This document shows, piece by piece, positions 4,501 to 53,411 of a DNA stretch of 64,000 bases. The notes below the pieces were generated by a model that saw only the letters and a program-made list of their open reading frames with translations, did not search any database and was not told the DNA's origin. Made by a program: the position numbers and the translations under genes. The stretch is from an uncultured cyanobacterium (GTDB lineage Bacteria > Cyanobacteriota > Cyanobacteriia > PCC-9006 > JAAUQQ01): assembly GCA_963718615.1 (NCBI GenBank), contig OY970368.1, positions 1,280,001 to 1,344,000 of the forward strand, read 5' to 3'. How positions within the stretch are numbered: the first letter of the stretch is position 1; each line of letters opens with the position of its first letter.

Positions 4501-5558
4501 GGATGATCCTGCCGCGCCGGACCGCCCACCAAGGCAAACCCCGTCAACGACACCGCCGCATCCACCAAAGCCTTGTCTTTCGCCAGGGGATCAAAAAAGT
4601 AGGCATTCACCGACTTAGAAAAGTCCAAACCGCCGTTAAACACCGGGATCACCCGCGCACCGCGATATTCCATTTCCGAGATAATGGCGACGTAGTGGGC
4701 GTCGTCTCCAGTGACGATGTGCGATCGCTGCAACACCAAACCAATCACCGGACCATCCTGGGCCACATCCTTACGGGAATTGCTCCAGTTCAAATATTCC
4801 TTGATGTCCTCAAACATCTCCGGAGCCAGCGGATGCCAAATGCCCTGCTCAGGATAAACCACGGGGTCTTCAAACTGAAGCTCGGGCTGATCCAAGTCCT
4901 GGGCGTCACCGCCTTTGTTGAGGACGTAGCGATCGGCAATCATCAGCAGGAAGTTTTCCAGATTCTCCGGCGAGCCCCCCAGCCAATACTGGAAGCTCAT
5001 CATGAAGCTGCGGGCATCCTGGGCCTTGTCCACCGGCAGATATTTCAGCACCTTCGGCAGCGTCCGCAGCAGCTTCAGCATGGCGTCCTCGAAGCCTGCG
5101 GCGTCCTTCTGGCGGCGCTTCTTCATGAATTCGCCAATGACGCTCTTGGACTGACCCAAGTTCGACATACGAAACTTGCCCAGCTTATTCAGCCGCATAA
5201 CGTTGGGCATGGAGGGGAAGCAAATGGCGGCGTCGAGCTGGTCGCGCACGGGCTCTACGGCAGCGGCGACTTTCTCGGCCAGATCCTCAATAAAAATCAG
5301 CGAGGCAATAAAGATATTGGCCTCGGCCACTTCCTTCTTGAAATTCTCGTAGTTTTCCTCGTCGCGCAATTCCTCGATCAGATAGCCGCTAATCTCCACC
5401 GCAATGCTGGGATTTTGGGCGTTGATTTTGCGGACGGCAGTGGATAGAGCACTCTGATACTGGGACTCCAGTACGACGTAGACCACCTTTACTAAGGAAC
5501 GGCCCTTGAGGTCGTCGGGGGTAATGTGTCGGATGGTGGACTTGACGTAGGTGAACAT
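1554..5558 (-). CDS. chlH: Magnesium chelatase subunit H
   Basis: [11 protein letters not shown]...[51 protein letters not shown]; start placed at the conserved MFT (5558). Confidence 0.98.
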
Positions 5559-6020
5559 GCAGTTCTGGGCTCCTCGGGATGCGTGTTCTGCTTGGACGAC
5601 TGGAACAGGAGATGAGCAAGCATACTCATCCATATAGTTTTTTACCAGAAACCGACCCCTAGGATTGGGGATCCTGGGAGCACTGACACAATTTGACAAG
5701 AACGACTATGAATTTTTGAAACGATCTGTTGTAATGCTTGACTTTTTGTGGATTGGGGCGATCGCGAAGTCGAGAACTTCAGCGCTACGACTTTTCGGAT
5801 GTCTATTCTCGGATGTCTATTCAATGTTGGCGCGGGAGAATCAGCTTTACCCGGTAGCCCAGATTTTGAAGCGCATTGCGGGTCAAATATCAGTTTAGTG
5901 CAGCACACTTCCTAGGATAATCCTCCGGGATAGGGGATGGGCAGTCGCGAGACGTTTTTCCAGGCAACACGGCGGATCTTCCTTTCTTTGTCAAATTCAA
6001 ACGTTTGCGGATTATAGAGA

Positions 6021-6035
6021 TATACTAAAAGTATA
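6021..6035. promoter_or_regulatory. Palindrome TATACT-N3-AGTATA, likely vapBC autoregulatory operator
   Basis: Perfect 6-bp inverted repeat ~20 bp upstream of the vapB start. Confidence 0.45.
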
Positions 6036-6054
6036 GACTTGAGGTTTGCACTTG

Positions 6055-6288
6055 ATGAACATTGCGAAGCTGTTTCAGAATGGTCAAAGTCAGGCTGTGC
6101 GGCTACCTAAGGCGTTTCGGTTTGAGGGCGATCGCGTCTTCATTAAGCAAGTTGGCAGCGCAGTGATTCTGTTGCCCTATCAAAATGCTTGGCAGGTGTT
6201 GTTCGATAGCTTGGATTTGTTTTCCGAGGATTTTATGGAAAATCGCCAAACACCTCTTCAGCAAGAACGTGAGACTTTATTTGATTAA
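6055..6288 (+). CDS. vapB: VapB antitoxin (AbrB/SpoVT-type)
   Basis: AKLFQNGQSQAVRLPKAFRF motif. Confidence 0.92.
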   Translation: MNIAKLFQNGQSQAVRLPKAFRFEGDRVFIKQVGSAVILLPYQNAWQVLFDSLDLFSEDFMENRQTPLQQERETLFD

Positions 6289-6351
6289 ATCTTAAGAATC
6301 TAAAGAATTTCAGGCCACATCAAGACAGGTCAGATTAAGCAACAATACAAC

Positions 6352-6750
6352 ATGCAGTATTTGCTAGATACCAATATTTGTATCTACATTATTAAGCGTA
6401 GACCGCCAGAGGTGCTGCAACGATTTTTGGTCTATGATCCGGGTGACATTGGCATCTCTACGATTACGATGGCAGAGCTTAGCTATGGGGTGCAAAAGAG
6501 CCAGCGTCCCCGGCAAAATCAAGCGGCATTGGAACAGTTTTTATTGCCGTTGGAGATTGTGGATTTTGATGCCGCTGCGGCTCAGAGGTATGGGCAAATC
6601 CGAGCTCATCTGGAGCAGCTGGGTCTGCCGATTGGTTCGTTGGACTTTTTAATTGCAGCCCAGGCCCTGAGTTTGGGGATAGTTTTGGTGACTAACAATG
6701 CAAAAGAGTTTATGCGGGTGCCGGAATTAAGGGTGGAAAATTGGATATGA
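6352..6750 (+). CDS. vapC: VapC PIN-domain toxin
   Basis: YLLDTNICIY...EL..G...IGSLDFLIAAQAL...VTNNAKEF. Confidence 0.95.
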   Translation: MQYLLDTNICIYIIKRRPPEVLQRFLVYDPGDIGISTITMAELSYGVQKSQRPRQNQAALEQFLLPLEIVDFDAAAAQRYGQIRAHLEQLGLPIGSLDFLIAAQALSLGIVLVTNNAKEFMRVPELRVENWI

Positions 6751-6840
6751 ATGAGGATTTTGAAGTGGTTCGACTGTCGCTCGCGCTAAAATGGATCAAG
6801 CCCCAGTGATGTTCCCCCGAAGAAGTAGACAGATGTCCAA

Positions 6841-6950
6841 ATGCAGATTGATCTCGGGGCAGAGCAACTTTTGGGGGTAGAACGGGGAAACCAACAAATC
6901 GCCGTAGAACCAGAGCGATTTTGTACCTAGCGGTTCCAAGCCAAACCTAC
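6841..6950 (+). pseudogene. xisH: XisH remnant (deleted, frameshifted, fused to xisI)
   Basis: MQIDLGAEQLLGVERGNQQIAVE joined directly to PER, then LYLAVPSQTY in another frame. Confidence 0.75.
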
Positions 6951-7298
6951 GACGAATATCGAAAGTTGGTAAAGCAAGTCTTGCAGCAACATGCGGCGAT
7001 TAAGCCTGCCTACGGCGAAATCGAAGTGGGTACGCTGTTTGATCAGGAAAGCGATCCTTCGGAGCTTGGCAAAGCCAATCGCTACCAAGTCATGCGCTCA
7101 GGCTGGCTCAAGGAACGTCGGGTCTATGGAGCACTCATCCATATTGATCTCAAAGATAGCAAATGCTGGATCCAGTACGACGGTACTGAAGTTGGGGTAG
7201 CAAACGAATTAGTTGAGTTAGGGATTCCGAAAGAGGATATCGTTTTGGCCTACCATGCCCCCCTCCTGAGGGAATACGGTGAGTTTGCGGTAGGGTAA
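6921..7298 (+). CDS. xisI: XisI family protein (N-terminus fused to XisH remnant; 8-aa insertion)
   Basis: YQVMRSGW...ALIHIDLKDSKCWIQYDGTEVGVANELVELGIPKEDIVLAYH...EFAVG. Confidence 0.85.
   Translation: MYLAVPSQTYDEYRKLVKQVLQQHAAIKPAYGEIEVGTLFDQESDPSELGKANRYQVMRSGWLKERRVYGALIHIDLKDSKCWIQYDGTEVGVANELVELGIPKEDIVLAYHAPLLREYGEFAVG
7054..7077. mobile_element. 24-nt small dispersed repeat (SDR-like) inserted into a HIP1 site
   Basis: GCG|ATCCTTCGGAGCTTGGCAAAGCCA|ATCGC; removal restores GCGATCGC and the usual ESDRYQ reading. Confidence 0.7.
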
Positions 7299-7322
7299 TG
7301 GCTCTAACTTCGACTCACCCCC

Positions 7323-8378
7323 ATGACGGATCCCCTTGGCCTAACCCCCTCCATTCTCAAAAACCTCAACGCCCGCACCCTCTATCGGGGCGACATCCTG
7401 TTTCCCTGTATTCCGGCTGCTTGCGGTGCCTACGTCAGCCACCTTGATATCCTCATGCGCAACTTTGGTCAGGCATTTGTGCCAGAGGAGCTAGAGCAAC
7501 TATCAACGCTTCTGCTCACTGCTATGAGCCAAGGTTACGCCCAAAGCCCCAATGCCCAAATCGCCTTTCACTACGAGGTGAAGGGGACTGCCCAGTTACA
7601 AAAAACGATCGCCTGTGAAATCTCCCTCGTGTTACCGTCCCTAGGTGAACAGTACGATACCTGGTATCGAATGGAGGACGCATCGCCCCTGTTTGGCGGG
7701 GTTGCCGATGCCAAGGTGCTGGCAGTGCTGGCCGAGTTGCTCCCGATGGAAACAACCGGCATGGAGCGGCCTAGGGTTTTGGATATTGGCGCAGGCGATG
7801 GCCGCAATGCCATTCCGATCGCCCAGAAAAATTATCAGGTCGATGCTGTTGATCTCACGCCGGAACTCACGGCTGAACTCAAACGAAAAGTTGCCCAGCT
7901 CCAGCTTGAATCCTGGTTGAAAGTCTTTGCAGCTGATCTCCTCGATCCGGCCATAAGCTTTCAAACAGACTGCTATGATCTGGTTTTCTTGTCAGAAGTG
8001 ACCTCGCATTTCCGCAGTATAGACGAGCTGCGGCAAATGTTTCTCAAAGCTTCAGCTTGTCTGAAACCAGGACGGTATTTACTGTTCAACTGCTTCTTGG
8101 CCAAGGAGGGGTTTGAACCAGATGCTATGGCCGTCGAAATGTCTCAAATTGCCTGGTCGAGTTTATTCTTGCGATCGCAGCTCGAAGCGGCCCAGGCTGA
8201 CCTCCCGTTTAGGCTGATCTCGGATGAGTCGGCTATTGAGTATGAGCGATCGCACCTCCCCGCAGAACACTGGCCCCCTACCCCGTGGTACGAAACCTGG
8301 GCGACAGGACGCAGTGCTTTTCCGTTTTTAGAGGGTACCTTCCCCCTAGAACTGCGCTGGTTACTTTATCAAAAATAG
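7323..8378 (+). CDS. Class I SAM-dependent methyltransferase
   Basis: VLDIGAGDGRN motif I, YDLVFLSEV, LKPG. Confidence 0.85.
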   Translation: MTDPLGLTPSILKNLNARTLYRGDILFPCIPAACGAYVSHLDILMRNFGQAFVPEELEQLSTLLLTAMSQGYAQSPNAQIAFHYEVKGTAQLQKTIACEISLVLPSLGEQYDTWYRMEDASPLFGGVADAKVLAVLAELLPMETTGMERPRVLDIGAGDGRNAIPIAQKNYQVDAVDLTPELTAELKRKVAQLQLESWLKVFAADLLDPAISFQTDCYDLVFLSEVTSHFRSIDELRQMFLKASACLKPGRYLLFNCFLAKEGFEPDAMAVEMSQIAWSSLFLRSQLEAAQADLPFRLISDESAIEYERSHLPAEHWPPTPWYETWATGRSAFPFLEGTFPLELRWLLYQK

Positions 8379-8567
8379 CCCAACTCTCATATCCTTAAGC
8401 ACGAGCCGCTTCTCCACAATCGCACAGAAGATTGATAACCGCTTGGGGAGCGCGTAACGCAGTAGGAGGATGTGCAATGGAACGTTTTATAGTTAATTGC
8501 GCCTAGCTACTGATCAGGAAAAACTAGCTAGACCATCGTCTAGAATCCAATCATAAAGACAAAAGCG

Positions 8568-9425
8568 ATGCGAGAGCGATTCCCAGAATCTTTGCCAGAA
8601 TCTTTGCCAGAATCTTTGCCAGAATCTTTGCCAGAACCGTTGTTTATCTTGCAACAGGTGACCCAGCGATTCAACGGCAGCGAAGCCCTTAGCCAGGTCA
8701 GTCTGAGCATTCAACCGGGCGATCGCGTGGCGCTCATCGGTCCCAGTGGGGCAGGCAAAAGTACGCTGCTGAGTTTGCTCAATGGCACGCGGTTGGCAAC
8801 GGAGGGCGAGGTTTGGGCGCTGGGTCGGTGTTGGCATCGGGTTTCGGGTCGCCAACGCCGTCAGCTTCAACGACAAATCGGCATGGTGTATCAGCAGTTT
8901 CATCTGGTAAATACACTACGGGTGATTCACAATGTCAATGCGGGGCACCTGGGCCGCTGGTCCGTGCCCAAGGCGTTGCTGTCCCTCATTCTGCCCCAGG
9001 ACGTGGCTTTAGCGCAGCAGGCCCTTGCCCAGGTGGGCATTGCCGAAAAACTCTGGACACGCACCGATCAGCTATCGGGAGGGCAGCAGCAGCGGGTGGC
9101 GATCGCCCGCGTCCTCATCCAGGATCCGTGGGTCATCTTAGCGGATGAGCCCATTGCTAGCCTTGACCCCGAGCGGGGTCGGGAGGTCATGCAGATCTTG
9201 GTGGATCTGTGCGCCGCTGGACGGACGCTAGTGGTGAGTTTGCATGATGTGGCCATGGCCCAGCGCTTTTGTAATCGGATCATTGGATTGCGCCAAGGCC
9301 GTGTCCTGTTTGATCAGCCCGTCACCGCCCTTGATGAAGCGCAAATCGCCCAGCTCTACGCCCTAGACTCGCCAGAAAATCCCCCTGCTAGTCGATCGCT
9401 AACGTCAGACAAAGCCATACACTAG
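8568..9425 (+). CDS. PhnC-like ABC transporter ATP-binding protein
   Basis: [37 protein letters not shown]. Confidence 0.88.
   Translation: MRERFPESLPESLPESLPESLPEPLFILQQVTQRFNGSEALSQVSLSIQPGDRVALIGPSGAGKSTLLSLLNGTRLATEGEVWALGRCWHRVSGRQRRQLQRQIGMVYQQFHLVNTLRVIHNVNAGHLGRWSVPKALLSLILPQDVALAQQALAQVGIAEKLWTRTDQLSGGQQQRVAIARVLIQDPWVILADEPIASLDPERGREVMQILVDLCAAGRTLVVSLHDVAMAQRFCNRIIGLRQGRVLFDQPVTALDEAQIAQLYALDSPENPPASRSLTSDKAIH
8583..8636. repeat. 12-bp tandem repeat CCAGAATCTTTG x4.5 (PESL repeats)
   Basis: Read directly from sequence. Confidence 0.95.
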
Positions 9426-9491
9426 GTCAGTAGCCTTCCGTCAGACAATCCTGGGGAAGGCTACGCAGTTGCCCTTCCTACGCTTTGAACC

Positions 9492-10628
9492 ATGAAGTGG
9501 ATTGATCAGCTTCCCCGCTGGTTTTCGTGGGGGCTTGTGCTCCCGTTGCTGGCCCTCAACGGTTGGGTCGCACTCCTGTTCTACCAGTACTTTGAGGGGT
9601 TGATTAAGATTTCCGTTGCGGCGACGCTGTTGACGTTTATTTTGAGTTACCCGGTGGGAGCCTTACAGCGGCTCAAACTGGGCCGAGGTCGCTCGGTTTT
9701 GCTGGTCTTGGTGGTGGCGTTAGCAGGGCTTGGGGTTTTGGGCGTGACGCTCATTCCTATCCTGCTCAATCAGCTCAATGATTTGGCGATGCGGCTGCCC
9801 AGTTGGCTGGATTCCGGTGCGGCTCAGCTGGATGCGCTCCAGGTTTGGGTGGCCCAGCGCAATTTGCCGGTGGATTTGATCAAATTGGGAGATCAACTGG
9901 AAGCGCGACTGTCGGGTCTTCTGCAAAATGCCAGTGGCATTGTTTTCGGGGTTTTGCCCGACGCCATTGGCAGCGTACTCGATTTTCTGCTGACGATTGT
10001 GCTGACGATTTATTTGCTTCTCCATGGCGATCGCTTTTGGAATGGCCTCTTTCAGTGGTTGCCGGATCGATTCAATGGCCAAATTCGCCCGCTGCTCAGC
10101 CAAAATTTTCAAAACTATTTTGCCGGTCAACTCAGTCTCGCGGCAGTCATGGGCGTGGCCATGACCATCGCATTTTTAATTATTCAAGTGCCCTTTGGCT
10201 TGCTTTTTGGCATTGGTGTTGGGGTTTTAGCGGTTTTTCCCTTTGGTACCGCAACCGGGGTTGCCATTGTCAGTTTGTTGACGGCGCTCAAAAGTATTTG
10301 GCTCGGGGTGCGGGTTTTAGCGGTGGCGTTGGTGATTGCCCAGGTGGTGGAAAATGCGATCGCCCCACTCCTGATCGGCGGTTTTACGGGTCTCAACCCC
10401 GTTTGGATTTTGCTATCGTTGCTTGTGGGGGCCAAGCTGGGTGGCATTTTGGGGTTAGTCATTGCCGTTCCCATCGCCAGCTCGATCAAAGAAGTTTTCA
10501 CGATTTTGCGAGAATCTGGGCTCACCGATAATAGTTCAGACCCTAAAGCAGATGATCACACAACGAATTCCTCGCTACAAAATGGTTCAGAAACGTCGAG
10601 TACGTTAACTCCATCTACCCTTCCCTAG
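9492..10628 (+). CDS. AI-2E (PerM) family transporter
   Basis: Multi-TM, NYFAGQ, ENAIAPLLIG..TGLNP, GGILGLVIAVP. Confidence 0.88.
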   Translation: MKWIDQLPRWFSWGLVLPLLALNGWVALLFYQYFEGLIKISVAATLLTFILSYPVGALQRLKLGRGRSVLLVLVVALAGLGVLGVTLIPILLNQLNDLAMRLPSWLDSGAAQLDALQVWVAQRNLPVDLIKLGDQLEARLSGLLQNASGIVFGVLPDAIGSVLDFLLTIVLTIYLLLHGDRFWNGLFQWLPDRFNGQIRPLLSQNFQNYFAGQLSLAAVMGVAMTIAFLIIQVPFGLLFGIGVGVLAVFPFGTATGVAIVSLLTALKSIWLGVRVLAVALVIAQVVENAIAPLLIGGFTGLNPVWILLSLLVGAKLGGILGLVIAVPIASSIKEVFTILRESGLTDNSSDPKADDHTTNSSLQNGSETSSTLTPSTLP

Positions 10629-10645
10629 GCATCGGCGATTTAAGC

Positions 10646-11617
10646 ATGGAAGTTTTGCCAGAAGCGAGCCCGACCGTCAAGTCATCGAAAATTCTTAGAC
10701 TATTGCCGGTGCTCCTAGCAGGGATATTGCTTGCGTTCACCTATCACTGGCTGAGCCATGAATTGACGGCCCATTCTCTGGCGCAAATTTGGCAAAGCTT
10801 TCGCAGTATTCCCCAATCTTCAATATTACTGGCCCTCAGTTTAACCTTGCTCAACTATGGGGTTTTGAGTGGTTACGATACGCTGGCCGTTCGCTATGCC
10901 CGTCGTCCGTTAACCTATGGGAGAACGGCATTGGTGGCCATGATTGGCTATGCCTTTAGCAATAATTTTGGGTTTACAGTGTTAAGTGGTGGGGCTATTC
11001 GCTATCGCTTTTATCGACGCTGGGGATTATCTGTGGGGGCGATCGCCCAAACCATTTTGTTTTGCAATCTTAGCTTTTGGGTCGGTCTGTTGACCCTCGG
11101 GGGGGCATTGTTTCTCTGGGATCCGTTTTCCGTGGCAGTTTTGTTGCGTCTACCCCTAGAGACGGTGCGGTCCTTGGGGGGATGTTTTCTCAGCCTTGTC
11201 CTCGCTTACCTCGGCTGGTGTTTGCTGAGTGTTCGGCCATTACGTTTGCGGCAATGGGTTTTGCCCCCCTTATCCTTGCGGTTGGCATTGGGACAAATGG
11301 GGGTCACTCTAGCGGATTGGATGATTGTGGCAGCGGTGCTTTATGTTTTGTTGCCGGGGACACTTTTGCCCTCCTATCCGTCTTTTTTAGGCATTTACTC
11401 CTTGGCTAAAGTGGCTGCGGTGATGAGCCATGTGCCAGGAGGGTTGGGAGTATTTGAGACGGTGGTGCTGAGCGCGATCGCGCCCCCCGCCCAAGCGATG
11501 CCGAAGGTTTTAAGTGTGTTTTTGGCCTACCGGGGGATTTACTATTTGTTGCCGTTGGCGATCGCCATCTTAGTCTGGACCAGTTACGAACTCAAGCTGG
11601 GCAAACCTGAAAAATAA
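10646..11617 (+). CDS. Lysylphosphatidylglycerol synthase TM (MprF flippase-like/UPF0104) domain protein
   Basis: GYDTLA, GGAIRYRFY, SHVPGGLGVFE, AYRGIYYLLP. Confidence 0.85.
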   Translation: MEVLPEASPTVKSSKILRLLPVLLAGILLAFTYHWLSHELTAHSLAQIWQSFRSIPQSSILLALSLTLLNYGVLSGYDTLAVRYARRPLTYGRTALVAMIGYAFSNNFGFTVLSGGAIRYRFYRRWGLSVGAIAQTILFCNLSFWVGLLTLGGALFLWDPFSVAVLLRLPLETVRSLGGCFLSLVLAYLGWCLLSVRPLRLRQWVLPPLSLRLALGQMGVTLADWMIVAAVLYVLLPGTLLPSYPSFLGIYSLAKVAAVMSHVPGGLGVFETVVLSAIAPPAQAMPKVLSVFLAYRGIYYLLPLAIAILVWTSYELKLGKPEK

Positions 11618-11755
11618 GCAATAAACCTGCAAAATCTAGACTAAAATCCCACAAACCCGACAGCAGATCTATCTTTATGAGGAAGTGAAACTATTGCAAG
11701 ATCTCTATAGTAAGACAGATCCTTTGAGTCATCTTAGTTTCTTCAAGATTTTCCT

Positions 11756-12841: not shown

Positions 12842-12849
12842 GAAAGTGG

Positions 12850-44788: not shown

Positions 44789-44804
44789 GCTTAAAACTAC
44801 AACC

Positions 44805-45008
44805 ATGACAAGCAAACAGACTACATCCCCGCCAGACAACTCAAATGAGCAGCTCCTGCTCAAATACTGGCGATTGCTGCCCGAAACACATCAGCAATAC
44901 GTCATCGACTATGCCGAATTCCTAAGGCAAAAGTATGGCTCAAAGACTGACTCTGCTGAAGCAAAGGAAAACATAACCGAGCCTAACCCAAATCCTACCA
45001 ATCTATAA
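44805..45008 (+). CDS. Small DUF2281-like antitoxin-type protein
   Basis: EQLLLKYWRLLPETHQQYVIDYAEFLRQK helical motif. Confidence 0.6.
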   Translation: MTSKQTTSPPDNSNEQLLLKYWRLLPETHQQYVIDYAEFLRQKYGSKTDSAEAKENITEPNPNPTNL

Positions 45009-45053
45009 CAGTTTTCTGATGCCATCTCACTTCAACTTTGAGGATATATTGTC

Positions 45054-45904: not shown

Positions 45905-45909
45905 AATTA

Positions 45910-48852
45910 ATGCCCCAACTCGGCCCCATCACCCAAACACTCGAAGAAGAAATCAAACGAGACCTACGCCAGCAGGGCCTCATCATCTGGCTCGACAAAG
46001 ACGCCCACTACAGCGCCTACGTAGACCAGCTGATCGATCGCCATGCCCACAACGACTTCTTCGCCCCCGTCATCGCCTTTCGCGGCAGCTACCTCCAGCT
46101 TCTCTTCGACCTCGAAACCTACGGCAACGGCCTTGACCCGGATCGCCTCCTCATCCACATGCCCGGCCACAGCGAAGAAACCATCCGCAAAACCCCCCTC
46201 CTAGAGCTATACCTCCCCGGCAAACGCTTCCGCAAAGCCCTCCCCACCCTCGTCCGCGAGGCCGCCACCGGACGCCTCGCCCCCGATGAGATCGAAACCT
46301 ACCTCACCCACGGCCTCACCGACCTGGCCAGCGCCGAAACCTGGCTCACCACAGCCATCGCCCAACGCCAAGGCCACAACGACCCACACCGCAGCGACCT
46401 GGAAAACTACCTCAGTGGCCTCAGCCTAGAATGGATCCTCGAAGGAGCCCTGGGCCTCCACCCCGAATTTCAACAGCGCGTCAACAGCCTTGAACTGGGC
46501 CTAGAACTCGCCCAATACCTCACCCGCCACACCGGATTTAGCGATGAGTTTAGACGGTTTTACCTCAGTGACCGCACCGGTTCCCGCACCACCGGCTCCA
46601 TCGCCGAAGCCTTCACCGCCTGGCTGATGTGCGTCGAATACGTCCAGGATCTCCAGCGTGAGCCCCACCTCCCCGAACTCCAACCCCTCACCCAGCTCTC
46701 CGCTCCCCTCCGCCAAACCTGCCTGAACTTGGTCCATCACCTGCGGGACAAGCAACCCAAAACCTATCGCCAGCTCGCCCTACGCGTCGAAGGCCACCTC
46801 GAAAAAGAAATCGACCAAGTCGAAGCCACAGACCTCGGCAAGATCGACACCTTCCGCTGGGAAGAAAACAAAATCCTCGACAGCGCCCTAGCCGCCCTCG
46901 ACAGCGCCCACTGGCAGACCGTCCTCAATGCCTCCAGCCCCCGCATCGATAACAAATCCTTCTGGCTCAGCCAAGACCCCGAACGCGCCCAGGAATGGAG
47001 CCTAATCCACAGCGCCGCCCTCTTGGGCACCCGCCTGCGCGCCGCCCCCGATCCCCTGGCCGATAGCCTTAGTCTCGCGGATGCGATCGCCGTCTATACC
47101 GAAACCGCCTACCGCGTAGACCAAGCCCACCGCCAATTCGAACAGCAACGGGCCAAGCTCTTCGACTCCGCCTTGCCCCACTTCAGCCAGCTCCTCAGCG
47201 CCGCCGAAGCTCTGCGGGCCGAGTACCGTGCCTGGGCTGACCGGTTGTGCGATCGCTTCTGCCAGCTCTGCCAAGACCAAGGCTTCCTGCCCGAACCCCA
47301 CCTGCAACAGCGCCACCTCTTTGACCAAGTCGTGCTACCCCTGACCACAACCCACGGCGGTCGTAAGCCCACCAAAGTCGCCTACTTCCTGATTGATGCC
47401 TTCCGTTACGAAATGGCCGCCGAACTGCTGCCCCAACTGGAAGGCCCCAACCAAAACAGCGGAATTCAGGCCCATCTCAAAGCTCGCTATGCCGAACTGC
47501 CGACCATCACCGCTGTCGGGATGAACCTGCTGGCTCCGGTGAGCAGCGGCGGCAAGCTCACTGTTGCAGGAACAGACAAAAAGTTTGCTGGGTTTAAGAC
47601 CGGAGAATATACCGTTAAAGACCCCAAGAGCCGGGAGCGAGCCATGGGCGATCGCGCTGTAGGCAAACACGGCACAGTCATGCTGAAGCTAGATGAAGTG
47701 AGCGGCCTAGACCATACAACCCTCGATCGAAAATGTGACAAAGCCCAGCTCATTATTGTTCACAGTAAAGAGATCGACGACGCAGGAGAAGCCAACGTTG
47801 GCCCCCTCGCCTTTGCTGAGTTGCTCAAGCAAATCAAGTCTGCTTGCAATCGATTAAGGGCGATCGGCATTGGCGAATTTGTCCTCACCGCCGACCATGG
47901 CTTCTTACTGCAAGAAGAGACCTTTAGCAGCGTGGACCAAGGCACGAAGAAAACCCCGGAGCGTCGATACGCTTTCTCCCTCCATCCTGAACAGGGTAAC
48001 AAAAAGCTTTCGGTTTCCCTCGGCAGCCTGGGCTATCTAGATAAAAATGGGGGCAAAGAGGGCCATTTGATTTTCCTGCGCAGCACCGAGGTCTTCACCA
48101 CCGGCACCAAGGGCGCAAAATTTGTCCATGGCGGCAACAGCCTCCAGGAGCGTGTTATTCCGGTGTTGACCCTTTCGACGCGAAAACAGGCCCCGCTCAA
48201 TCTGCTGCGCTATCGCATTGAACTCGAAGCGGGCGAGAGCGTCATGAACCTGCAACGCTTGCAAGTCAGCATCAAGTCTGCGGCGGAGGCCCAGGGCGTG
48301 CTCGATTTCACCCATCCTCAGAAAAAAATTAGCTTGGGACTGCGGGTGCGCGATCGCGCCGATATCCAGGTCCGCATCAAGGGAGTCACCGCCGCAGAAA
48401 TGGCCAACCAGCAAATCTTGCTCGCCCCCAACGCCGACAAACCCGCCGAAATCTTCTTCGACCTCACCGGCCCCTACGACGAGCGCGTCCAGCTAGAGGC
48501 CTACCATCCCGACGGCATCGAAGAGGTTGAAGCCTGTCTCTCCCAAGCCTTTTTCCCAGTTGCAGGGGCACCAATTGAGAAAACAGAAGATTCAAAATCT
48601 AAGACGGTTGCACCCAAACCTCCCCCTGTTGCCACGGGCTGGATCGACAACTTCGAAGATGAGTCCCTCCAAAAGGTTTTCCGCCACATCGAAGACCATG
48701 GCTCACTTCATGAAACAGAACTGATTCAGATGCTAGGTAGTGCTCGAAAAGCTCGAATGTTCTCCAGGGAAATTGATAACTATCAACTCAAAATTCCTTT
48801 CACGATTCGTAGTGAATCCACTGCCTCCGGTAAGCGATACGTCAAAAACTAG
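45910..48852 (+). CDS. pglZ: BREX PglZ-domain phosphatase/nuclease
   Basis: YFLIDAFRYE, ELPTITAVGMN, EIDDAGE, LTADHGF, FVHGGNSLQERVIPV. Confidence 0.93.
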   Translation: MPQLGPITQTLEEEIKRDLRQQGLIIWLDKDAHYSAYVDQLIDRHAHNDFFAPVIAFRGSYLQLLFDLETYGNGLDPDRLLIHMPGHSEETIRKTPLLELYLPGKRFRKALPTLVREAATGRLAPDEIETYLTHGLTDLASAETWLTTAIAQRQGHNDPHRSDLENYLSGLSLEWILEGALGLHPEFQQRVNSLELGLELAQYLTRHTGFSDEFRRFYLSDRTGSRTTGSIAEAFTAWLMCVEYVQDLQREPHLPELQPLTQLSAPLRQTCLNLVHHLRDKQPKTYRQLALRVEGHLEKEIDQVEATDLGKIDTFRWEENKILDSALAALDSAHWQTVLNASSPRIDNKSFWLSQDPERAQEWSLIHSAALLGTRLRAAPDPLADSLSLADAIAVYTETAYRVDQAHRQFEQQRAKLFDSALPHFSQLLSAAEALRAEYRAWADRLCDRFCQLCQDQGFLPEPHLQQRHLFDQVVLPLTTTHGGRKPTKVAYFLIDAFRYEMAAELLPQLEGPNQNSGIQAHLKARYAELPTITAVGMNLLAPVSSGGKLTVAGTDKKFAGFKTGEYTVKDPKSRERAMGDRAVGKHGTVMLKLDEVSGLDHTTLDRKCDKAQLIIVHSKEIDDAGEANVGPLAFAELLKQIKSACNRLRAIGIGEFVLTADHGFLLQEETFSSVDQGTKKTPERRYAFSLHPEQGNKKLSVSLGSLGYLDKNGGKEGHLIFLRSTEVFTTGTKGAKFVHGGNSLQERVIPVLTLSTRKQAPLNLLRYRIELEAGESVMNLQRLQVSIKSAAEAQGVLDFTHPQKKISLGLRVRDRADIQVRIKGVTAAEMANQQILLAPNADKPAEIFFDLTGPYDERVQLEAYHPDGIEEVEACLSQAFFPVAGAPIEKTEDSKSKTVAPKPPPVATGWIDNFEDESLQKVFRHIEDHGSLHETELIQMLGSARKARMFSREIDNYQLKIPFTIRSESTASGKRYVKN

Positions 48853-48899
48853 GTCCTTGTCTCGTAGGTTTCTATTCCTGTTGTTTCCCTCTGGTTATC

Positions 48900-50228
48900 A
48901 TGACTATCTCCCAACGCGACATTGAACATATCTTCGAGCGCCTGCGCTCCGGCGTGGTCCCCGAGCGGGGCTTAGAGGCCTTCGCCGTTGGCATCGACAA
49001 ACAGCGCAATGAAATCCATCGGCAATTGAGTCTGGCAGGCGATCGCGAAGGCGTCTTCAAATTCCTGCGGGGCGGCTACGGCTGCGGCAAGACCTTCATG
49101 TCCCAGCTCACCGTCCTCGATGCCCAAACCCAGGGCTTCGCCACCAGTTTCATCGTCGTCTCCGACAACGACCTCCACTTCTACAAGTTCGACGACGTTT
49201 ACCGCAAAATCGTCCAGGAGCTGGGCACGAATCAATGCCCCAAAGGAGCCCTCAACGACATTATCGATCGCTGGATCGGCAGCGTCGAAGATGCCCTGAT
49301 CGATGGCGGAGCCAACGAAGACAGCGATGACTTCGATGCCCAGGTCAAACAGCGCCTGGAAGAAGACCTCGCCTCCATGACCAACGGCAAAGCCCCCGAA
49401 GACATGGCCCGCGTTCTCCGCGCCATCTTCGAACTCAAACAAGCAGGCAAACTAGCCGAAGCCAGTGCCCTGATCTCCTGGCTCTCCGGCAGTGAGAACG
49501 TCGCCGCCACAGCCAAAAAAGTGGCAGGCATCAAAGGCGACATCGGCAGCCGCGAAGCCCTCGACTACCTCCAGGGCATCCTCGCCATCACCCGCGCCGC
49601 TGGCTACCAGGGCCTCGTCATCGTCATCGACGAAGCCGAAACCATCCTGCGGATGCGCAATGACGTGCGCGGCAAATCCCTCAACGGCATTCGCCAAATC
49701 TGCGACGCCGCCGATAAATACCCTGGTCTGCTCTGGGTCTTCACCGGCACCCCCGAATTCTTCGACACCAAGCGCGGCGTTGCCGGACTTCAGCCCCTGA
49801 ACGACCGCATTGAGTTCCTCTCTGGCTCGAAAGACAACAGATTTTCCAATCCTCGCCAGCCTCAGCTCGAACTCAAACCCTTCGATGCAGCACGCCTAAA
49901 AGAAGTCGCCCTCAAGCTGCGAGAAATCTACCCCACCCAAGATCAAGCCTTGCTGCGCACAAAAGTCCCCGTTGAATTTATTGAACGGCTGGTGGAGCAA
50001 GTGACAGCGGGCTTCAAAGGGGATGTCGGTGTGGTCCCCCGTCAGTTTCTGCGCCGCTTTGTCAATGTTCTAGATTTGGTGATTCAGAACCCGGACTACA
50101 ACCCCATGGCCGAGGAAGGCTTTGAGCCCGTCGATCCCACTGAAGACGAACAGCGTATCCAGGAAGGCAAACCGCCCTATGACCCTGAGCCCGAGGATGA
50201 AAAGGGCTATGAATTGGTTGAATTTTAG
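48900..50228 (+). CDS. brxD: BREX ATP-binding protein BrxD
   Basis: LRSGVVPERGL, RGGYGCGKTF, IVIDEAE, GTPEFF, PRQFLR. Confidence 0.93.
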   Translation: MTISQRDIEHIFERLRSGVVPERGLEAFAVGIDKQRNEIHRQLSLAGDREGVFKFLRGGYGCGKTFMSQLTVLDAQTQGFATSFIVVSDNDLHFYKFDDVYRKIVQELGTNQCPKGALNDIIDRWIGSVEDALIDGGANEDSDDFDAQVKQRLEEDLASMTNGKAPEDMARVLRAIFELKQAGKLAEASALISWLSGSENVAATAKKVAGIKGDIGSREALDYLQGILAITRAAGYQGLVIVIDEAETILRMRNDVRGKSLNGIRQICDAADKYPGLLWVFTGTPEFFDTKRGVAGLQPLNDRIEFLSGSKDNRFSNPRQPQLELKPFDAARLKEVALKLREIYPTQDQALLRTKVPVEFIERLVEQVTAGFKGDVGVVPRQFLRRFVNVLDLVIQNPDYNPMAEEGFEPVDPTEDEQRIQEGKPPYDPEPEDEKGYELVEF

Positions 50229-50242
50229 GGAGGAGCGAAGTC

Positions 50243-52360
50243 ATGACCACAGCCTTTTCTCGCTTTCATCCTCGCTTGCAAGAGGCGATCGCCAACCGCA
50301 TCGGCTGGACCTCCCTCCGCCCCGTCCAAGAACTGGCTAGCCACGCCATCCTCGACGGCAAAAACGCCGTCATCCTCGCCCCCACTGCCGGAGGCAAAAC
50401 CGAAGCCTCGATGTTTCCGCTGCTTTCCAGCGTCATGGCCAATGAGCCCGAGGGACTTGGACTGATTTACATCGCCCCGATCAAAGCCCTGCTCAACAAC
50501 CAAGCCGAACGCCTGGGCACTTATACCGAAATGGTCGGTCTGCGCCGCTTCCTCTGGCATGGTGATGTCACCGCAACTGAAAAGAAGACGTTTATTCAAG
50601 ACCCCGCCACGTTACTGATGACCACCCCGGAATCCTTAGAGGTGATGTTGCTATCGCCCAAGGTGCCGGATACCAAGATTTTTAAGGATCTGCGGGCGAT
50701 CGTCATTGATGAGGTTCATGCCCTGGCTGGGAGCGATCGCGGCACCCACCTCCTCTCCGTCCTAGAACGCCTCGCCCGCCACACCGAGAACGACATCCAG
50801 CGCATCGGCCTCAGCGCCACCGTCGGCAATCCTGAAGCCATCCTCACCTGGCTCCAGGGCACTTCCCAACGCCAGGGCGAAGTCATCGACCCCCCCAAGC
50901 AACCCTCTCCCAAAGCGCTGCGCATTTACCTGCGCGATACCCTCGGCGGCATCGCCACCGAAGCCAGCGCCCAGGCTTACCAAAACAAAAGCCTCTTCTT
51001 TTGCCAGAGCCGCGCCCTCTCCGAAGACATTGCCGAGCGCATGCGCCATCGCGGCACCGATGTCTTTGTCCACCACAGCTCCGTCTCCCTCGAAGAACGA
51101 GCTGCTGCGGAAGAACGCTTTAGTCGTGGCAGCAACACCTGCATCGTCTGCACCTCCACCCTAGAACTGGGCATCGACGTCGGCGACCTCGACCTCGTCC
51201 TCCAAGCCAACGCTGCTTCTACTGTCGCATCCTTCCTCCAGCGCCTGGGCCGCACCGGACGACGCCAGGGGCAGCGGGCCAACACCACGTTCTACTGCGA
51301 GGATGTGGAGACGGTCTTGCAAGCCGTGGCGATCGTCGAGCTGACCCGCAAAGGCTGGGTCGAATCCGTCCCCGTCCAAACCCGCTGCTGGCCCGTCCTC
51401 GTCCACCAACTCCTCGCCCTCACCCTCCAATTCGGAGCCATCAGCCCGGAGCGCTGCTGGGAACAGCTCTCCACCGTCTCGGATTTCTCCGGCATCAGCC
51501 GCGAAGAATTTGATGACCTGCTTCAGTTCATGGAGCGAGAAACCTTTCTTTTCAGCTCTGGCGGCCTGCTCTCCATGGGCGACAAGGCCGAGAAAGTCTT
51601 TGGTCGAAAGAACTTCATGGAACTCTACGCGGTCTTCAGCAGCCCCCAGCTCTACAAAGTTCAAACCAAGGCCAACTACACCGTCGGCACATTAGAACAA
51701 TCTTTCGTCGATAAGCTCGTCCCCGACATGAGCTCCTTCCTCCTCGGCGGGCGCGGTTGGACCGTCATCAACGTCAACCATGACGACCGCACCGTCCAGG
51801 TCATGGCCGCTCCCCGAGGCAAAAAGCCGAGCTGGAGCGGTTTTGCTCCCCAGCTCCTCAGCTTCGAACTCTGCCAGCAAATCGCCGAGCTGATTCGTAG
51901 CGACCAGCCCATTCCCCTCCTCGACCCCATCGCCCAGGATGCCCTCACCTCCTACCGCGAAGAAGTCGCCCCCCTAATCAAGCCCAACCAGCTCAATCTC
52001 ATTGTCGAAGAGAAGCGATCGCTCATCTGGACCTTTGCTGGAGGTCAAATCAATCACACGCTCAAATATGGCTTTCAGTTCCACCACGACTGGAAAGTGG
52101 TCGTCGATAACTTCCGCATTCGCATTGAAGGAGAGGAAGTGGGGACAACCTCGATCTTGCTGGCGATCGAGCAAATGCAAAAACCCGGCTTCTGGGAAGC
52201 AGCAGCCACCCGCGACTTCATCCTGGAGCAGCTCCCCAACTATCGGCTGAGCAAGTTTCAACCCGCGCTGCCGGATGAGTATTCGCTAGAGTTGGTTTGG
52301 GATTATTTACTGGATGTGAGGGGGGCGATCGCATACCTACGCAAAACACTAGATCAATAG
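50243..52360 (+). CDS. brxHI: BREX Lhr-like DEAD/DEAH helicase BrxHI
   Basis: APTAGGKTEA, PIKAL, TTPESLE, IDEVH, SAT, TSTLELGIDVG, QRLGRTGR. Confidence 0.92.
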   Translation: MTTAFSRFHPRLQEAIANRIGWTSLRPVQELASHAILDGKNAVILAPTAGGKTEASMFPLLSSVMANEPEGLGLIYIAPIKALLNNQAERLGTYTEMVGLRRFLWHGDVTATEKKTFIQDPATLLMTTPESLEVMLLSPKVPDTKIFKDLRAIVIDEVHALAGSDRGTHLLSVLERLARHTENDIQRIGLSATVGNPEAILTWLQGTSQRQGEVIDPPKQPSPKALRIYLRDTLGGIATEASAQAYQNKSLFFCQSRALSEDIAERMRHRGTDVFVHHSSVSLEERAAAEERFSRGSNTCIVCTSTLELGIDVGDLDLVLQANAASTVASFLQRLGRTGRRQGQRANTTFYCEDVETVLQAVAIVELTRKGWVESVPVQTRCWPVLVHQLLALTLQFGAISPERCWEQLSTVSDFSGISREEFDDLLQFMERETFLFSSGGLLSMGDKAEKVFGRKNFMELYAVFSSPQLYKVQTKANYTVGTLEQSFVDKLVPDMSSFLLGGRGWTVINVNHDDRTVQVMAAPRGKKPSWSGFAPQLLSFELCQQIAELIRSDQPIPLLDPIAQDALTSYREEVAPLIKPNQLNLIVEEKRSLIWTFAGGQINHTLKYGFQFHHDWKVVVDNFRIRIEGEEVGTTSILLAIEQMQKPGFWEAAATRDFILEQLPNYRLSKFQPALPDEYSLELVWDYLLDVRGAIAYLRKTLDQ

Positions 52361-52399
52361 CAGTTTGCGAGGGAACACCATCACAAGAGGCCTAGAAAA

Positions 52400-52471
52400 A
52401 GCGGATGATGGGACTCGAACCCACGACATTCAGCTTGGGAAGCTGACGTTCTACCACTGAACTACATCCGC
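52400..52471 (-). tRNA. tRNA-Gly(CCC)
   Basis: GCGGATGTAGTTCAGTGGTAGAACGTCAGCTTCCCAAGCTGAATGTCGTGGGTTCGAGTCCCATCATCCGC; cloverleaf, anticodon CCC. Confidence 0.96.
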
Positions 52472-52535
52472 ATCGTCAGGAACAATTATACTGCAAACTT
52501 TCTCTTGAATCCATCTACCCCTCCAGACTTAACCC

Positions 52536-53411
52536 GTGATGACTCCGACCCTGTCAGGCTCCCCCCATCCCCAAACCACGATCGCCCATCCCTTCTCCCA
52601 AACCGGCATTGGTCTCCACAGTGGCCTTACCACCACTGTTTCCGTTAAACCAGCTCCCCTCGGCAGTGGACGAATCTTTCAGCGCATCGACCTGCCGGGA
52701 CAGCCCCTCATTCCTGCAACGCTCGCCGCCGTCAACCCCACTCAACTCTCTACGGAGCTCGTGGTCGAAGGAGCCAGTGTTCGCACCGTCGAGCATTTGC
52801 TGGCCGCGTTGGCTGGCATGGGAGTAGTGAATGTGCTGATGGAAGTGGATGGACCGGAGGTGCCGTTGCTGGATGGCTCCGCCCAGCTTTGGGTAGAGGC
52901 GATCGCCCAAGCCGGTCTCCAATTCCACCCCCCCTACCCCCCCTTCCAAACGCCGCCCCCGACCCTCCAAGCCCCCCTCACCCTCCACGCAGGCGACGCC
53001 TTCATCACCGCCATCCCCGCCGACCACACCCGCCTCACCTATGGCATTGACTTTCCCCACCCTGCCATTGGCAACCAGTGGTTTAGCCTTGACTGGACCC
53101 CCGAAGGCTTTGCCCAGGAGATTGCACCTGCTCGAACCTTTGGCTTTGCAGAACAGGTCGAGCAATTGCGTAACCTGGGCCTCATCAAAGGCGGAAGCCT
53201 GGAGAATGCACTCGTTTGTGGTCCCGAGGGCTGGATCAATCCTCCTTTAAGATTTGCAAATGAACCTGCCCGTCATAAACTTTTAGATCTAGTGGGGGAT
53301 TTGAGCCTGCTGGGGGTTTTGCCCCAGGCCCACATCCTGGCCTATAAAGCGAGCCACACCCTGCATACGCGGTTTGCTCAACTGCTTCAGGCGCGGCTGA
53401 CCGTGAGCTGA
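52536..53411 (+). CDS. lpxC: UDP-3-O-acyl-GlcNAc deacetylase
   Basis: [49 protein letters not shown]. Confidence 0.97.

What the first reader, a model, noticed from the sequence alone, without database searches (positions are those of the whole stretch)
4680..53060. HIP1 sites sit at G/T-to-C/A strand-asymmetry switch points, suggesting a HIP1-anchored mutational or repair process
Seen: at many GCGATCGC sites the top strand is G/T-rich to the left and C/A-rich to the right. Examples on minus-strand genes: chlH 4721, metH 17269, acnB 24290 (GGGCGGTGCGGGTTTTGTCCGTGA|GCGATCGC|CCAATCAAAAGCGGAATCCGCCCCCC), DUF4127 30570 and 31367. Examples on plus-strand genes: pglX 42093, brxHI 50733 and 52325, lpxC 52899. 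The polarity is therefore independent of transcription direction, rotationally symmetric about the palindrome, and extends tens to thousands of bp. Known: HIP1 function is unresolved, and links to CGATCG/GATC methylation and repair have been proposed. Inference: the polarity is what repeated cutting or nicking at HIP1 followed by 5'->3' resection would leave (C->T and A->G on the exposed strand 5' of the site), or biased repair synthesis starting there. I do not know a description of this long-range flank skew but could not search the literature. The examples were picked by eye.
Basis: partly seen in the sequence, partly recalled or inferred. Interest (0 to 1): 0.85.

Follow-up and report, generated by a model that had tools for sequence, protein, structure and literature searches.

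The report
Polar G/C skew gradient flanking HIP1
DNA next to the cyanobacterial HIP1 palindrome is G-rich on its 5' side and C-rich on its 3' side for about 100-150 bases on both strands, a real and seemingly undescribed footprint that points to a direction-dependent DNA process starting at HIP1.

Summary
All 8,831 HIP1 sites of this 6.1-Mb genome, averaged, show an antisymmetric skew (z = 58). So do the window's own sites: 68 of 85 have the stated polarity. 245 other palindromic octamers, all other hexamers, and GATC outside CGATCG show nothing.

Three corrections:
- The skew is G versus C, not G/T versus C/A.
- It decays with a length of about 50 bp and is gone by 150-200 bp, so it does not reach thousands.
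- It is a log-linear tilt, G > A = T > C, on the strand 5' of the site. It is strongest at synonymous sites. A transitions-only deamination model cannot reproduce it.

New here: the unit is the polar 7-mer GCGATCG. Its 5' flank is skewed and its 3' flank is not. The same polarity appears in 15 of 16 sampled cyanobacterial genomes with variable strength, and is nil in one HIP1-rich genome. E. coli Chi, GATC and CCWGG leave no such footprint.

Best reading, inferred and not shown: a strand-polar short-tract nick, repair or recombination process anchored on G-CGATCG. This fits the 7-mers of Elhai's 2015 model. I found no description in the literature searched.

The parts
1..64000 (.). All 85 HIP1 octamers of the window, from 946-953 to 63702-63709, each with about 150 bp of flank on either side. 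68 have a G-richer left flank and C-richer right flank, 15 have the opposite, 2 are equal.
24290..24297 (.). HIP1 inside the aconitase B ORF (- strand). G-C over bases 11-80 is +25 on the left and -7 on the right. 98th percentile of genome sites.
24140..24289 (+). G-rich 5' flank (top strand) of HIP1 24290.
24298..24447 (+). C-rich 3' flank (top strand) of HIP1 24290. Equivalently, the G-rich 5' flank on the bottom strand.
52899..52906 (.). HIP1 inside the lpxC ORF (+ strand). This is the most extreme site of the window: +16 on the left, -42 on the right, top percentile. The right flank is a very C-rich stretch, so coding may add to the skew here.
16936..16943 (.). HIP1 in metH (- strand). Left +12, right -13.
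29264..29271 (.). Intergenic HIP1. Left +1, right -25.
50733..50740 (.). HIP1 in the Lhr-type helicase ORF (+ strand) of the BREX-like cluster. Left +4, right -19.
57047..57054 (.). HIP1 in a - strand ORF. Left +6, right -18.
29360..29367 (.). Counter-example with opposite polarity: left -26, right -9. One of the 15 such sites.
52015..52022 (.). Counter-example with opposite polarity: left -18, right -3.

Best explanation
The skew is the evolutionary footprint of a strand-polar, short-tract DNA transaction anchored on the 7-mer G-CGATCG. HIP1 holds one such 7-mer on each strand.

Most likely mechanism: a nick is made at or opposite this half-site. Excision and resynthesis then run for some tens of nucleotides in one fixed direction. 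Synthesis from a 3'-OH at the site necessarily fills the 3' flank of the nicked strand, which is the C-rich, G-poor strand. Uncorrected errors of that patch, biased by base identity, tilt the composition.

SHOWN: the anchoring motif, the polarity, the tract-like decay, the base spectrum and the spread among cyanobacteria.

INFERRED: that a nick exists; which strand is resynthesised; which enzyme acts; and whether cytosine methylation of CGATCG is what is read, as in Elhai's 2015 G-mC mismatch-repair model.
For: 1. MOTIF LOGIC. Sites are more than 300 bp from any full HIP1; values are fourfold GC skew on the motif strand (same result).
- GCGATCGD (n=1,631): +0.171 +- 0.009 in the 5' flank and 0.000 +- 0.009 in the 3' flank.
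- GCGATCH (n=1,035): +0.015.
- HCGATCGD (n=646): -0.003.
- GATC outside CGATCG (n=5,802): -0.006.
- One more G upstream changes nothing (0.179 against 0.168).
These are exactly the two 7-mers that Elhai proposed as functional units (PMC4390886, section 3.4, read).

2. TRACT-LIKE DECAY. At 2,714 isolated sites the fourfold ln(G/C) shift is 1.5 at 5 bp, 1.0 at 17 bp, 0.5 at about 45 bp and 0.1 at 150 bp. A single exponential fits with a length of 48 bp; a double exponential gives 13 and 77 bp.

3. BASE-LEVEL, CONTEXT-FREE TILT.
- At 11-20 bp, G gains about +0.4-0.46 and C loses about -0.5 in log-odds against A and T. This holds at twofold and fourfold sites alike. T/A is unchanged.
- The k-mer content of the flanks follows from the mononucleotide tilt. 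There is no motif and no 10.5-bp periodicity.
- The two flanks are not more complementary than shuffled pairs: 9.69 against 9.80 positions.

4. NOT PROTEIN-DRIVEN. The tilt is strongest at synonymous sites, present in non-coding DNA, and equal in sense and antisense orientation. It is strong enough to shift amino-acid usage upstream versus downstream of HIP1.

5. SAME POLARITY ELSEWHERE.
- The antisymmetric skew at 11-40 bp is positive in 15 of 16 sampled genomes of different families, and above 3 SE in 8 of them.
- Six loci of G000's own family, pooled, give +0.108 +- 0.019.

6. SUBSTITUTION DENSITY IN ANOTHER GENUS. I compared G024 and G045 over about 169 kb aligned, with 234 of 245 HIP1 conserved.
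- Third-position divergence at 3-40 bp from HIP1 is 0.2403 +- 0.0059, against 0.2278 far away. The ratio is 1.055 +- 0.026.
- In a three-genome count, transversions near HIP1 number 251 observed against 203.9 expected. I summed these. This is post hoc and about 3 sigma.
A small extra, transversion-rich input is what patch synthesis predicts.
Against: - No nick, enzyme or methylation state was observed.
- MutH (PF02976) and Vsr (PF03852) families were found in 0 of 5 genomes searched: G000, G012, G023, G030 and G015. The actor is therefore unknown.
- I could not identify a CGATCG methyltransferase in G000. Its only C5-methylase sits beside a BsuBI/PstI-type endonuclease and is sporadically distributed. 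Its orphan N6/N4 methylase also has orthologs in three HIP1-poor genomes.
- E. coli's nick-directed systems leave no such footprint at GATC (3,283 sites) or CCWGG (2,079 sites). The known analogues therefore give no precedent.
- The excess divergence near HIP1 is only about 2 sigma, and it comes from a genus with weaker skew than G000.
- In the three-genome test, per-base rates of favoured changes (1.079 +- 0.053) and disfavoured changes (1.062 +- 0.049) did not differ.
- Non-coding positions show only about 0.3-0.45 of the fourfold tilt. A pure mutation bias does not predict this unless intergenic DNA is more constrained or turns over faster.
- A log-linear tilt is equally what biased conversion or weak selection gives.
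Confidence: 0.4

Rival explanations
1. Biased gene conversion or 'molecular drive' linked to recombination or natural transformation. HIP1 acts as a Chi-like or uptake-type site. The heteroduplex always forms with the same strand polarity next to the 7-mer. Mismatches are accepted or rejected according to the base on that strand: G-containing mismatches are recognised best and C-containing ones worst.
For: - The tilt is log-linear with A and T neutral, as for conversion or selection.
- The weaker effect in non-coding DNA would fit recombination that needs conserved homology.
- Substitution density near HIP1 is close to flat, 1.055 +- 0.026.
- Kamoku & Nielsen report that homologous HIP1 sites raise transformation up to 7-fold, and more than 100-fold when methylated, and they discuss a Chi-like role (bioRxiv 10.1101/2024.09.10.611283; abstract and discussion read).
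- A 2026 GBE paper links HIP1 abundance to competence and pilus genes (PMC13756078; abstract and discussion read).
- Marker efficiency in pneumococcal transformation depends on mismatch type (PMC3375284, introduction passage). The ranking of single mismatches is my recollection.
Against: - E. coli Chi (183 sites in 800 kb) shows no 5'-versus-3' flank switch: -0.024 +- 0.017.
- addAB deletion did not abolish the HIP1 effect in PCC 7002.
- G/A and G/T shift equally, as do C/A and C/T. This fits a base-identity effect better than mismatch-pair-specific repair.
- A 50-bp scale is short for recombination tracts.
- G+C content does not rise, so this is not classical GC-biased conversion.
Confidence: 0.25
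2. Direct weak selection for G-rich DNA 5' of each half-site. The G-rich single strand ending at HIP1 might be preferred by RecA, DprA, uptake machinery or another binding protein.
For: - The log-linear tilt has a size typical of codon-bias-like selection.
- The polarity is conserved across families.
- RecA is reported to prefer TGG-type repeats (PMC3763553, abstract as listed).
Against: - There is no motif, no helical periodicity and no G-run excess beyond the tilt.
- T is not favoured, whereas RecA-preferred sequences are G/T-rich.
- About 27% of the genome lies within 100 bp of a HIP1, and protein composition is dragged along. That would be a heavy load for selection.
- One HIP1-rich genome has no skew at all: G012, 281 sites, -0.002 +- 0.010.
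Confidence: 0.12
3. Reverse causality: HIP1 sites arise or survive preferentially where the sequence already switches from G-rich to C-rich.
For: The per-site distribution is a shifted bell of unchanged width. Exponential weighting of pre-existing variation would give the same shape.
Against: - No process is known that senses 100 bp of composition.
- The gradient peaks at the site and decays smoothly.
- Each flank follows its own terminal base.
- Other G...C palindromes show nothing.
Confidence: 0.06
4. One reading: cutting at HIP1, 5'->3' resection, and deamination (C->T, A->G) of the exposed 3' strand.
For: The geometry gives the right strand. At twofold sites, C/T and A/G ratios shift in the predicted direction.
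Against: At fourfold sites A and T do not move and purine content rises from 0.455 to 0.60. A transitions-only model fails, with chi2 of 680-2047 against 32-153.
Confidence: 0.04
5. Locally better mismatch repair of one strand's replication errors. Excision runs one way from a nick at the half-site, so errors of the other strand dominate.
For: It fits the 7-mer logic of Elhai's model. MutL is present in all 5 genomes searched.
Against: It predicts fewer substitutions near HIP1. For the skew seen in genus g20 I estimate 5-11% fewer. The observed ratio is 1.055 +- 0.026. MutL is also present in G012, which lacks the skew.
Confidence: 0.03
6. Artefact of coding frame, gene orientation, repeats or composition.
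For: HIP1 has a frame preference: 2,409, 1,946 and 806 sites in the three frames.
Against: - A constant or period-3 coding signal cancels in the antisymmetric part.
- The effect is present in both gene orientations and in non-coding DNA.
- It is absent at all control words.
- The whole per-site distribution is shifted.
Confidence: 0.01

Closest known systems
Elhai's hypothetical G-mC-directed mismatch repair (Life 2015, PMC4390886)
   Same: It names the two 7-mers GCGATCG and CGATCGC inside HIP1 as the functional units, and postulates a nick on the opposite strand (section 3.4). Here each flank's skew follows exactly its own 7-mer.
   Different: The model was built to explain how HIP1 accumulates. 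It predicts no flank gradient. A term search of that paper found no 'skew' or 'asymmetr'. Its nicking enzyme is unknown. A variant with locally better repair is disfavoured.
Replication-associated strand compositional asymmetry (chromosomal GC skew)
   Same: G exceeds C on one strand and switches sign at a point. Both are thought to reflect strand-specific mutation or repair.
   Different: The scale is 100 bp around 8,832 points, not megabases around an origin and terminus. The polarity is 'terminus-like'. There is no T>A at fourfold sites. This genome has no clear chromosome-scale skew.
Chi recombination hotspots (E. coli GCTGGTGG); Chi 'embedded in GT-rich islands' (Tracy et al. 1997, recalled, not read)
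   Same: A polar short motif. The strand 5' of it becomes the recombinogenic 3' tail. HIP1 has been called Chi-like.
   Different: I found no flank switch at 183 E. coli Chi sites. HIP1 is two opposed polar units. recC is rare in cyanobacteria (PMC5101192). addAB is not needed for the HIP1 effect.
Methyl-directed (MutH/GATC) and very-short-patch (Vsr/CCWGG) repair of E. coli
   Same: A nick at or near a methylation site followed by excision and resynthesis. VSP repair is said to have reshaped oligonucleotide frequencies (recalled).
   Different: There is no antisymmetric flank skew beyond 10 bp at 3,283 GATC or 2,079 CCWGG sites. No MutH or Vsr homologue was found in the five cyanobacterial genomes searched.
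DNA uptake sequences (Haemophilus USS, Neisseria DUS) accumulating by molecular drive (recalled)
   Same: A hyper-abundant short motif with extended flanking preferences. HIP1 is now proposed as an uptake signal (PMC13756078).
   Different: Known uptake-sequence flanks are about 20 bp, motif-like and AT-rich. They are not a 100-bp G-versus-C gradient. I did not test those genomes.
GC-biased gene conversion at recombination hotspots
   Same: A selection-like, log-linear shift of base composition around an initiation site.
   Different: Here G+C content is unchanged (0.68-0.70). The bias is between G and C on one strand.

Membership tests
HIP1 (highly iterated palindrome 1) | GCGATCGC is grossly over-represented | tested here: met
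   85 in the window against 1.57 expected. 8,832 in the genome against 88 for the reversed word.
HIP1 (highly iterated palindrome 1) | Sites are conserved beyond the neutral expectation (Xu et al. 2018, abstract seen) | tested here: met
   In another genus, 234 of 245 aligned HIP1 are conserved at 11% overall divergence. This was not tested for G000 itself.
Elhai G-mC-directed repair model | The functional unit is the 7-mer G+CGATCG, one per strand | tested here: met
   The skew needs the full 7-mer and lies only on its 5' side.
Elhai G-mC-directed repair model | CGATCG is methylated at its first C by a resident methyltransferase | tested here: inconclusive
   G000 has one C5-methylase in an R-M pair, one orphan N6/N4 methylase and one Dam-like enzyme. 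Specificity cannot be read from sequence.
Elhai G-mC-directed repair model | A nicking enzyme reads G-mC | not testable with these tools
   No candidate was identified. MutH and Vsr families were not found.
Methyl-directed mismatch repair (MutHLS type) | A MutH endonuclease is present | tested here: not met
   PF02976 was found in 0 of 5 genomes, while the E. coli control rings. [quoted passage not shown]
Very short patch repair | A Vsr endonuclease is present | tested here: not met
   PF03852 was found in 0 of 5 genomes.
Chi-type hotspot | A polar oligomer acts in one orientation | tested here: met
   The 7-mer is polar.
Chi-type hotspot | Recognition by RecBCD or AddAB | not tested
   Literature only. 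addAB deletion had no effect, and recC is mostly confined to marine picocyanobacteria.
Chi-type hotspot | A comparable flank footprint at canonical Chi | tested here: not met
   E. coli, 183 sites: the 5'-3' difference is -0.024 +- 0.017.
Replication strand asymmetry | A chromosome-scale sign switch at origin and terminus, with T>A accompanying G>C | tested here: not met
   The cumulative skew is irregular. The scale is 100 bp. The fourfold T-A skew is about 0.
GC-biased gene conversion | G+C content rises near the initiation site | tested here: not met
   Fourfold G+C is 0.69-0.70 near the site and 0.68 far away.
Extended palindrome / hairpin element (REP-like) | The two flanks are complementary to each other | tested here: not met
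   9.69 complementary positions against 9.80 +- 0.03 in shuffled pairs. Only position 1 is in excess.

The most novel reading that the evidence does not exclude
Each HIP1 half-site (G-CGATCG) is the entry point of an as yet unidentified strand-polar nick-and-patch system. This would be the missing strand-discrimination or repair nuclease of cyanobacteria, which lack MutH, and it may read cytosine methylation. The +-50-bp G/C gradient would be its evolutionary read-out, giving polarity, tract length and error spectrum. The process would shape about a quarter of the genome, including local codon choice and amino-acid usage.
Probability: 0.3. Interest if true: 0.9.

Novelty: new variant of a known kind. 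Interest (0 to 1): 0.78.

Why it matters
HIP1 has been known for three decades without an agreed function. A polar, distance-graded, base-specific footprint tied to the 7-mer half-site gives concrete, testable parameters:
- which strand is acted on and in which direction;
- how far the process reaches, about 50 bp;
- what spectrum it leaves, G > A = T > C.

Several simple ideas become less likely. These are ssDNA deamination, hairpin selection, a wrapped protein complex and locally improved repair.

Strength varies between lineages, from nil in one HIP1-rich genus to very strong here. That variation offers a comparative handle for finding the responsible genes.

There is also a practical side. 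26.7% of this genome lies within 100 bp of a HIP1. Synonymous codon choice (NNG against NNC) and even amino-acid usage depend on position relative to HIP1. This matters for codon-usage models, for tests of selection in cyanobacteria and for the design of homology arms.

Tried and rejected
POLARISED SUBSTITUTION SPECTRA FOR G000.
- The nearest genomes held are only 76% identical in metH.
- Family genus g3 pairs are 83-88% identical with patchy synteny. I abandoned this route.
- Public runs hold a relative 2-5% divergent (X5).

LEADING AND LAGGING STRAND SPLIT. Not possible, because the cumulative GC skew is irregular.

TESTS THAT CAME OUT NEGATIVE.
- Hairpin or extended-palindrome idea.
- Specific flank motif, G-run or G4 idea, and 10.5-bp periodicity.
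- Dependence on local HIP1 density as a proxy for age.

GENE-CONTENT CORRELATES OF SKEW STRENGTH.
- The orphan N6/N4 methylase has an ortholog in 33 of 60 genomes. Among them are genomes with little skew beyond 10 bp and three HIP1-poor genomes.
- The C5-methylase has clear orthologs in only 2 of 60 genomes, G013 and G032.
- MutL is found in all 5 genomes searched.
No pattern emerged.
- G012 and G037 (genus g8) show no clear skew. Elhai lists four HIP1-rich strains without a recognisable CGATCG methyltransferase.

THREE-GENOME POLARISED TEST. It was underpowered to separate favoured from disfavoured rates.

PAPERS. Claverys 1983 (PMC390196) is not held, so the mismatch hierarchy is recalled. 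Supplements were not consulted. Supplementary tables of Elhai 2015 and of the 2026 GBE paper may bear on methyltransferase distribution.

LITERATURE SEARCHES FOR PRIOR DESCRIPTION.
- Searches were searches. One search was too loose to be useful.
- Searches were term searches in Xu 2018, Elhai 2015 and the GBE 2026 paper.
I found no description of the flank skew. Subscription journals are not covered.


Full report
WHAT WAS CHECKED. The window is G000:C1:1280001-1344000 of a single-contig 6.10-Mb genome with 52.3% G+C. It holds 85 GCGATCGC, against 1.57 expected from shuffles. The genome holds 8,832. The quoted flanks of site 24290 are correct.

Averaged over 8,831 sites, the top strand is keto-rich to the left of HIP1 and amino-rich to the right. 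The left-minus-right difference is 0.50 at 1-5 bp, 0.24 at 11-20, 0.154 at 21-40, 0.077 at 41-80, 0.027 at 81-150 and 0.0015 at 151-300 bp.
- The whole per-site distribution is shifted. The median is +8, against 0 at 20,000 random positions.
- In the window alone, 68 of 85 sites have the stated polarity, 15 the opposite and 2 neither (t = 6.7).
- Using my own ORF-based gene calls (4,674 ORFs), the polarity is the same for sites in + ORFs (2,508), - ORFs (2,653), intergenic sites (942) and mixed sites (2,728).
- Controls are clean. 245 other palindromic octamers (6,678 sites) give -0.0013 +- 0.0015, against 0.0880 (CI 0.085-0.091) for HIP1. Among 64 palindromic hexamers only CGATCG shows a clear effect. 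Among all 4,096 hexamers only HIP1 sub-words stand out.
- No skew is detectable in any bin from 151 to 2,000 bp.

WHAT THE SKEW IS MADE OF. It is G versus C.
- At fourfold sites, G/(G+C) on the strand lying 5' of HIP1 rises at 11-20 bp. It goes from 0.46 to 0.67 where that strand is the coding strand, and from 0.54 to 0.73 where it is the antisense strand. It reaches 0.92-0.94 at 1-2 bp. A, T and G+C content do not move.
- At 11-20 bp the GC skew is +-0.40 at fourfold sites, 0.37 at all third positions, 0.13 at non-coding positions, 0.09 at first positions and 0.06 at second positions.
- Twofold sites shift as well. C loses about 0.5 and G gains about 0.46 in log-odds against T and A. At fourfold sites G/A and G/T both gain 0.38, C/A and C/T both lose about 0.47, and T/A is unchanged.
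- The pattern is therefore a log-linear tilt, G > A = T > C. A tilt model parametrised from the twofold sites alone predicts the fourfold composition (chi2 32-153). A model with only extra C->T and A->G fails (chi2 680-2047).
- The k-mer content of the flanks follows from the single-base tilt. There is no motif and no helical periodicity.
- The two flanks are not complementary beyond chance.
- At 2,714 isolated sites the fourfold ln(G/C) shift falls from 1.5 at 5 bp to 0.1 at 150 bp. The fit is a single exponential of 48 bp, or 13 plus 77 bp.
- 26.7% of the genome lies within 100 bp of a HIP1. Amino-acid usage differs on the two sides within genes. V, M, G, W and E are 12-18% more frequent upstream. 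H, T, N, P and I are more frequent downstream.

THE UNIT IS A POLAR 7-MER. All sites here are more than 300 bp from any full HIP1.
- GCGATCG followed by a base other than C (n=1,631) has a skewed 5' flank (+0.171 +- 0.009) and an unskewed 3' flank (0.000 +- 0.009).
- GCGATC not followed by G gives +0.015.
- CGATCG without the outer G gives -0.003.
- GATC outside CGATCG gives nothing.
- A further G upstream adds nothing.
HIP1 is thus two opposed polar units. These are the same two 7-mers that Elhai proposed as the functional units of a hypothetical G-mC-directed mismatch repair (PMC4390886, section 3.4).

OTHER GENOMES. I took 40-100 kb samples from 15 further cyanobacterial genomes of different families.
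- Counting G000, the antisymmetric GC skew at 11-40 bp is positive in 15 of 16 genomes and above 3 SE in 8. G000 is the strongest at +0.137. G023 gives +0.113, G032 +0.096 and G013 +0.085.
- It is nil in G012 (281 sites, -0.002 +- 0.010). Its congener G037 gives +0.035 +- 0.016.
- Skew strength correlates with the share of HIP1 extended to GGCGATCGCC (Spearman 0.61, n=16).
- Six loci from G000's own family give +0.108 +- 0.019.
- In E. coli K-12 (first 800 kb), Chi (183 sites) has no flank switch (-0.024 +- 0.017). GATC (3,283 sites) and CCWGG (2,079 sites) have no antisymmetric skew beyond 10 bp.

A RATE TEST IN ANOTHER GENUS. Genus g20 has a weaker skew. G024 and G045 align over about 169 kb at about 89% identity.
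- 234 of 245 HIP1 are conserved.
- Third-position divergence is 0.2403 +- 0.0059 at 3-40 bp from conserved HIP1 and 0.2278 beyond 150 bp. The ratio is 1.055 +- 0.026.
- With a third genome (G069), per-base rates near HIP1 are 1.079 +- 0.053 for tilt-favoured changes and 1.062 +- 0.049 for disfavoured changes.
- Fluxes into and out of G (232 against 263) and C (242 against 217) balance within error.
- Transversions are 251 observed against 203.9 expected. This is my sum and is post hoc.
This argues against locally improved repair. It is compatible with a small extra mutational input or with conversion or selection.

ACTORS. MutH and Vsr families were not found in G000, G012, G023, G030 or G015. 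MutL is in all five. G000 has:
- one C5-methylase next to a BsuBI/PstI-type endonuclease, sporadically distributed;
- one orphan N6/N4 methylase, with orthologs in 33 of 60 genomes, including three HIP1-poor ones;
- one Dam-like enzyme.
I could not assign the CGATCG specificity.

LITERATURE.
- Elhai 2015: outline and sections 11 and 18 read, plus a term search.
- Xu 2018: term search only.
- The 2026 GBE paper: abstract, discussion and term search.
- Kamoku & Nielsen 2024: abstract and discussion.
- Cassier-Chauvat 2016: passages.
- A 2026 Nostoc editing preprint: passages.
None mentions a flank skew. Searches for HIP1 or GCGATCGC together with 'GC skew' or 'skew' found nothing relevant. Subscription journals and supplements were not seen.

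READING. A polar, tract-like, base-level and largely non-adaptive process anchored on G-CGATCG is the most economical account. I put a nick-primed short patch first (0.40). Polar heteroduplex conversion or drive linked to recombination or transformation comes second (0.25). Weak direct selection is third (0.12). The mechanism is inferred. Only the footprint is shown.

Noticed in passing
window 34039-52360 (+ strand): A BREX-like defence cluster: a DUF6079 protein (34039-37665), an Eco57I/MmeI-type methylase that is PglX-like (39917-44089), a PglZ-domain protein (45910-48852) and an Lhr/DEAD-type helicase (50243-52360).
   Followed up: partly
whole genome G000: Several GC-rich palindromic hexamers are nearly absent in 6.1 Mb: GGCGCC 13, CCGCGG 17, CGGCCG 34, CCCGGG 35, CACGTG 90, GGGCCC 92. 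This suggests restriction avoidance.
   Followed up: no
G000:C1:6017570-6019643 (L041 1414-3487): The only C5-cytosine methylase of the genome sits directly upstream of a BsuBI/PstI-family endonuclease. CTGCAG occurs only 418 times. Orthologs were found in only 2 of 60 sampled genomes.
   Followed up: partly
whole genome G000: There is no chromosome-scale GC skew. The cumulative curve is irregular, so origin and terminus cannot be placed from composition.
   Followed up: no
L110 (G006) about 14034-14178: An element of about 140 bp in a family relative matches 17 separate places in G002 and 2 in G007 at 82-88% identity. It looks like a small dispersed repeat.
   Followed up: no
G030 and G028 samples (L026-L030, L056-L058): In these two high-GC, very HIP1-dense genomes the flank skew is low in amplitude but persists to at least 200 bp (+0.03 to +0.05). 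The near peak seen in G000 is missing.
   Followed up: no
G024/G045 alignments (L152-L155, L207-L212): Non-coding positions diverge less (0.10-0.13) than third codon positions (0.23). This indicates constraint or alignment bias in intergenic DNA. It may explain why the HIP1 tilt is weaker in non-coding DNA.
   Followed up: partly
window 52907-53060: An extremely C-rich stretch of the lpxC ORF lies right after HIP1 52899. It makes this site the most extreme of the window.
   Followed up: no
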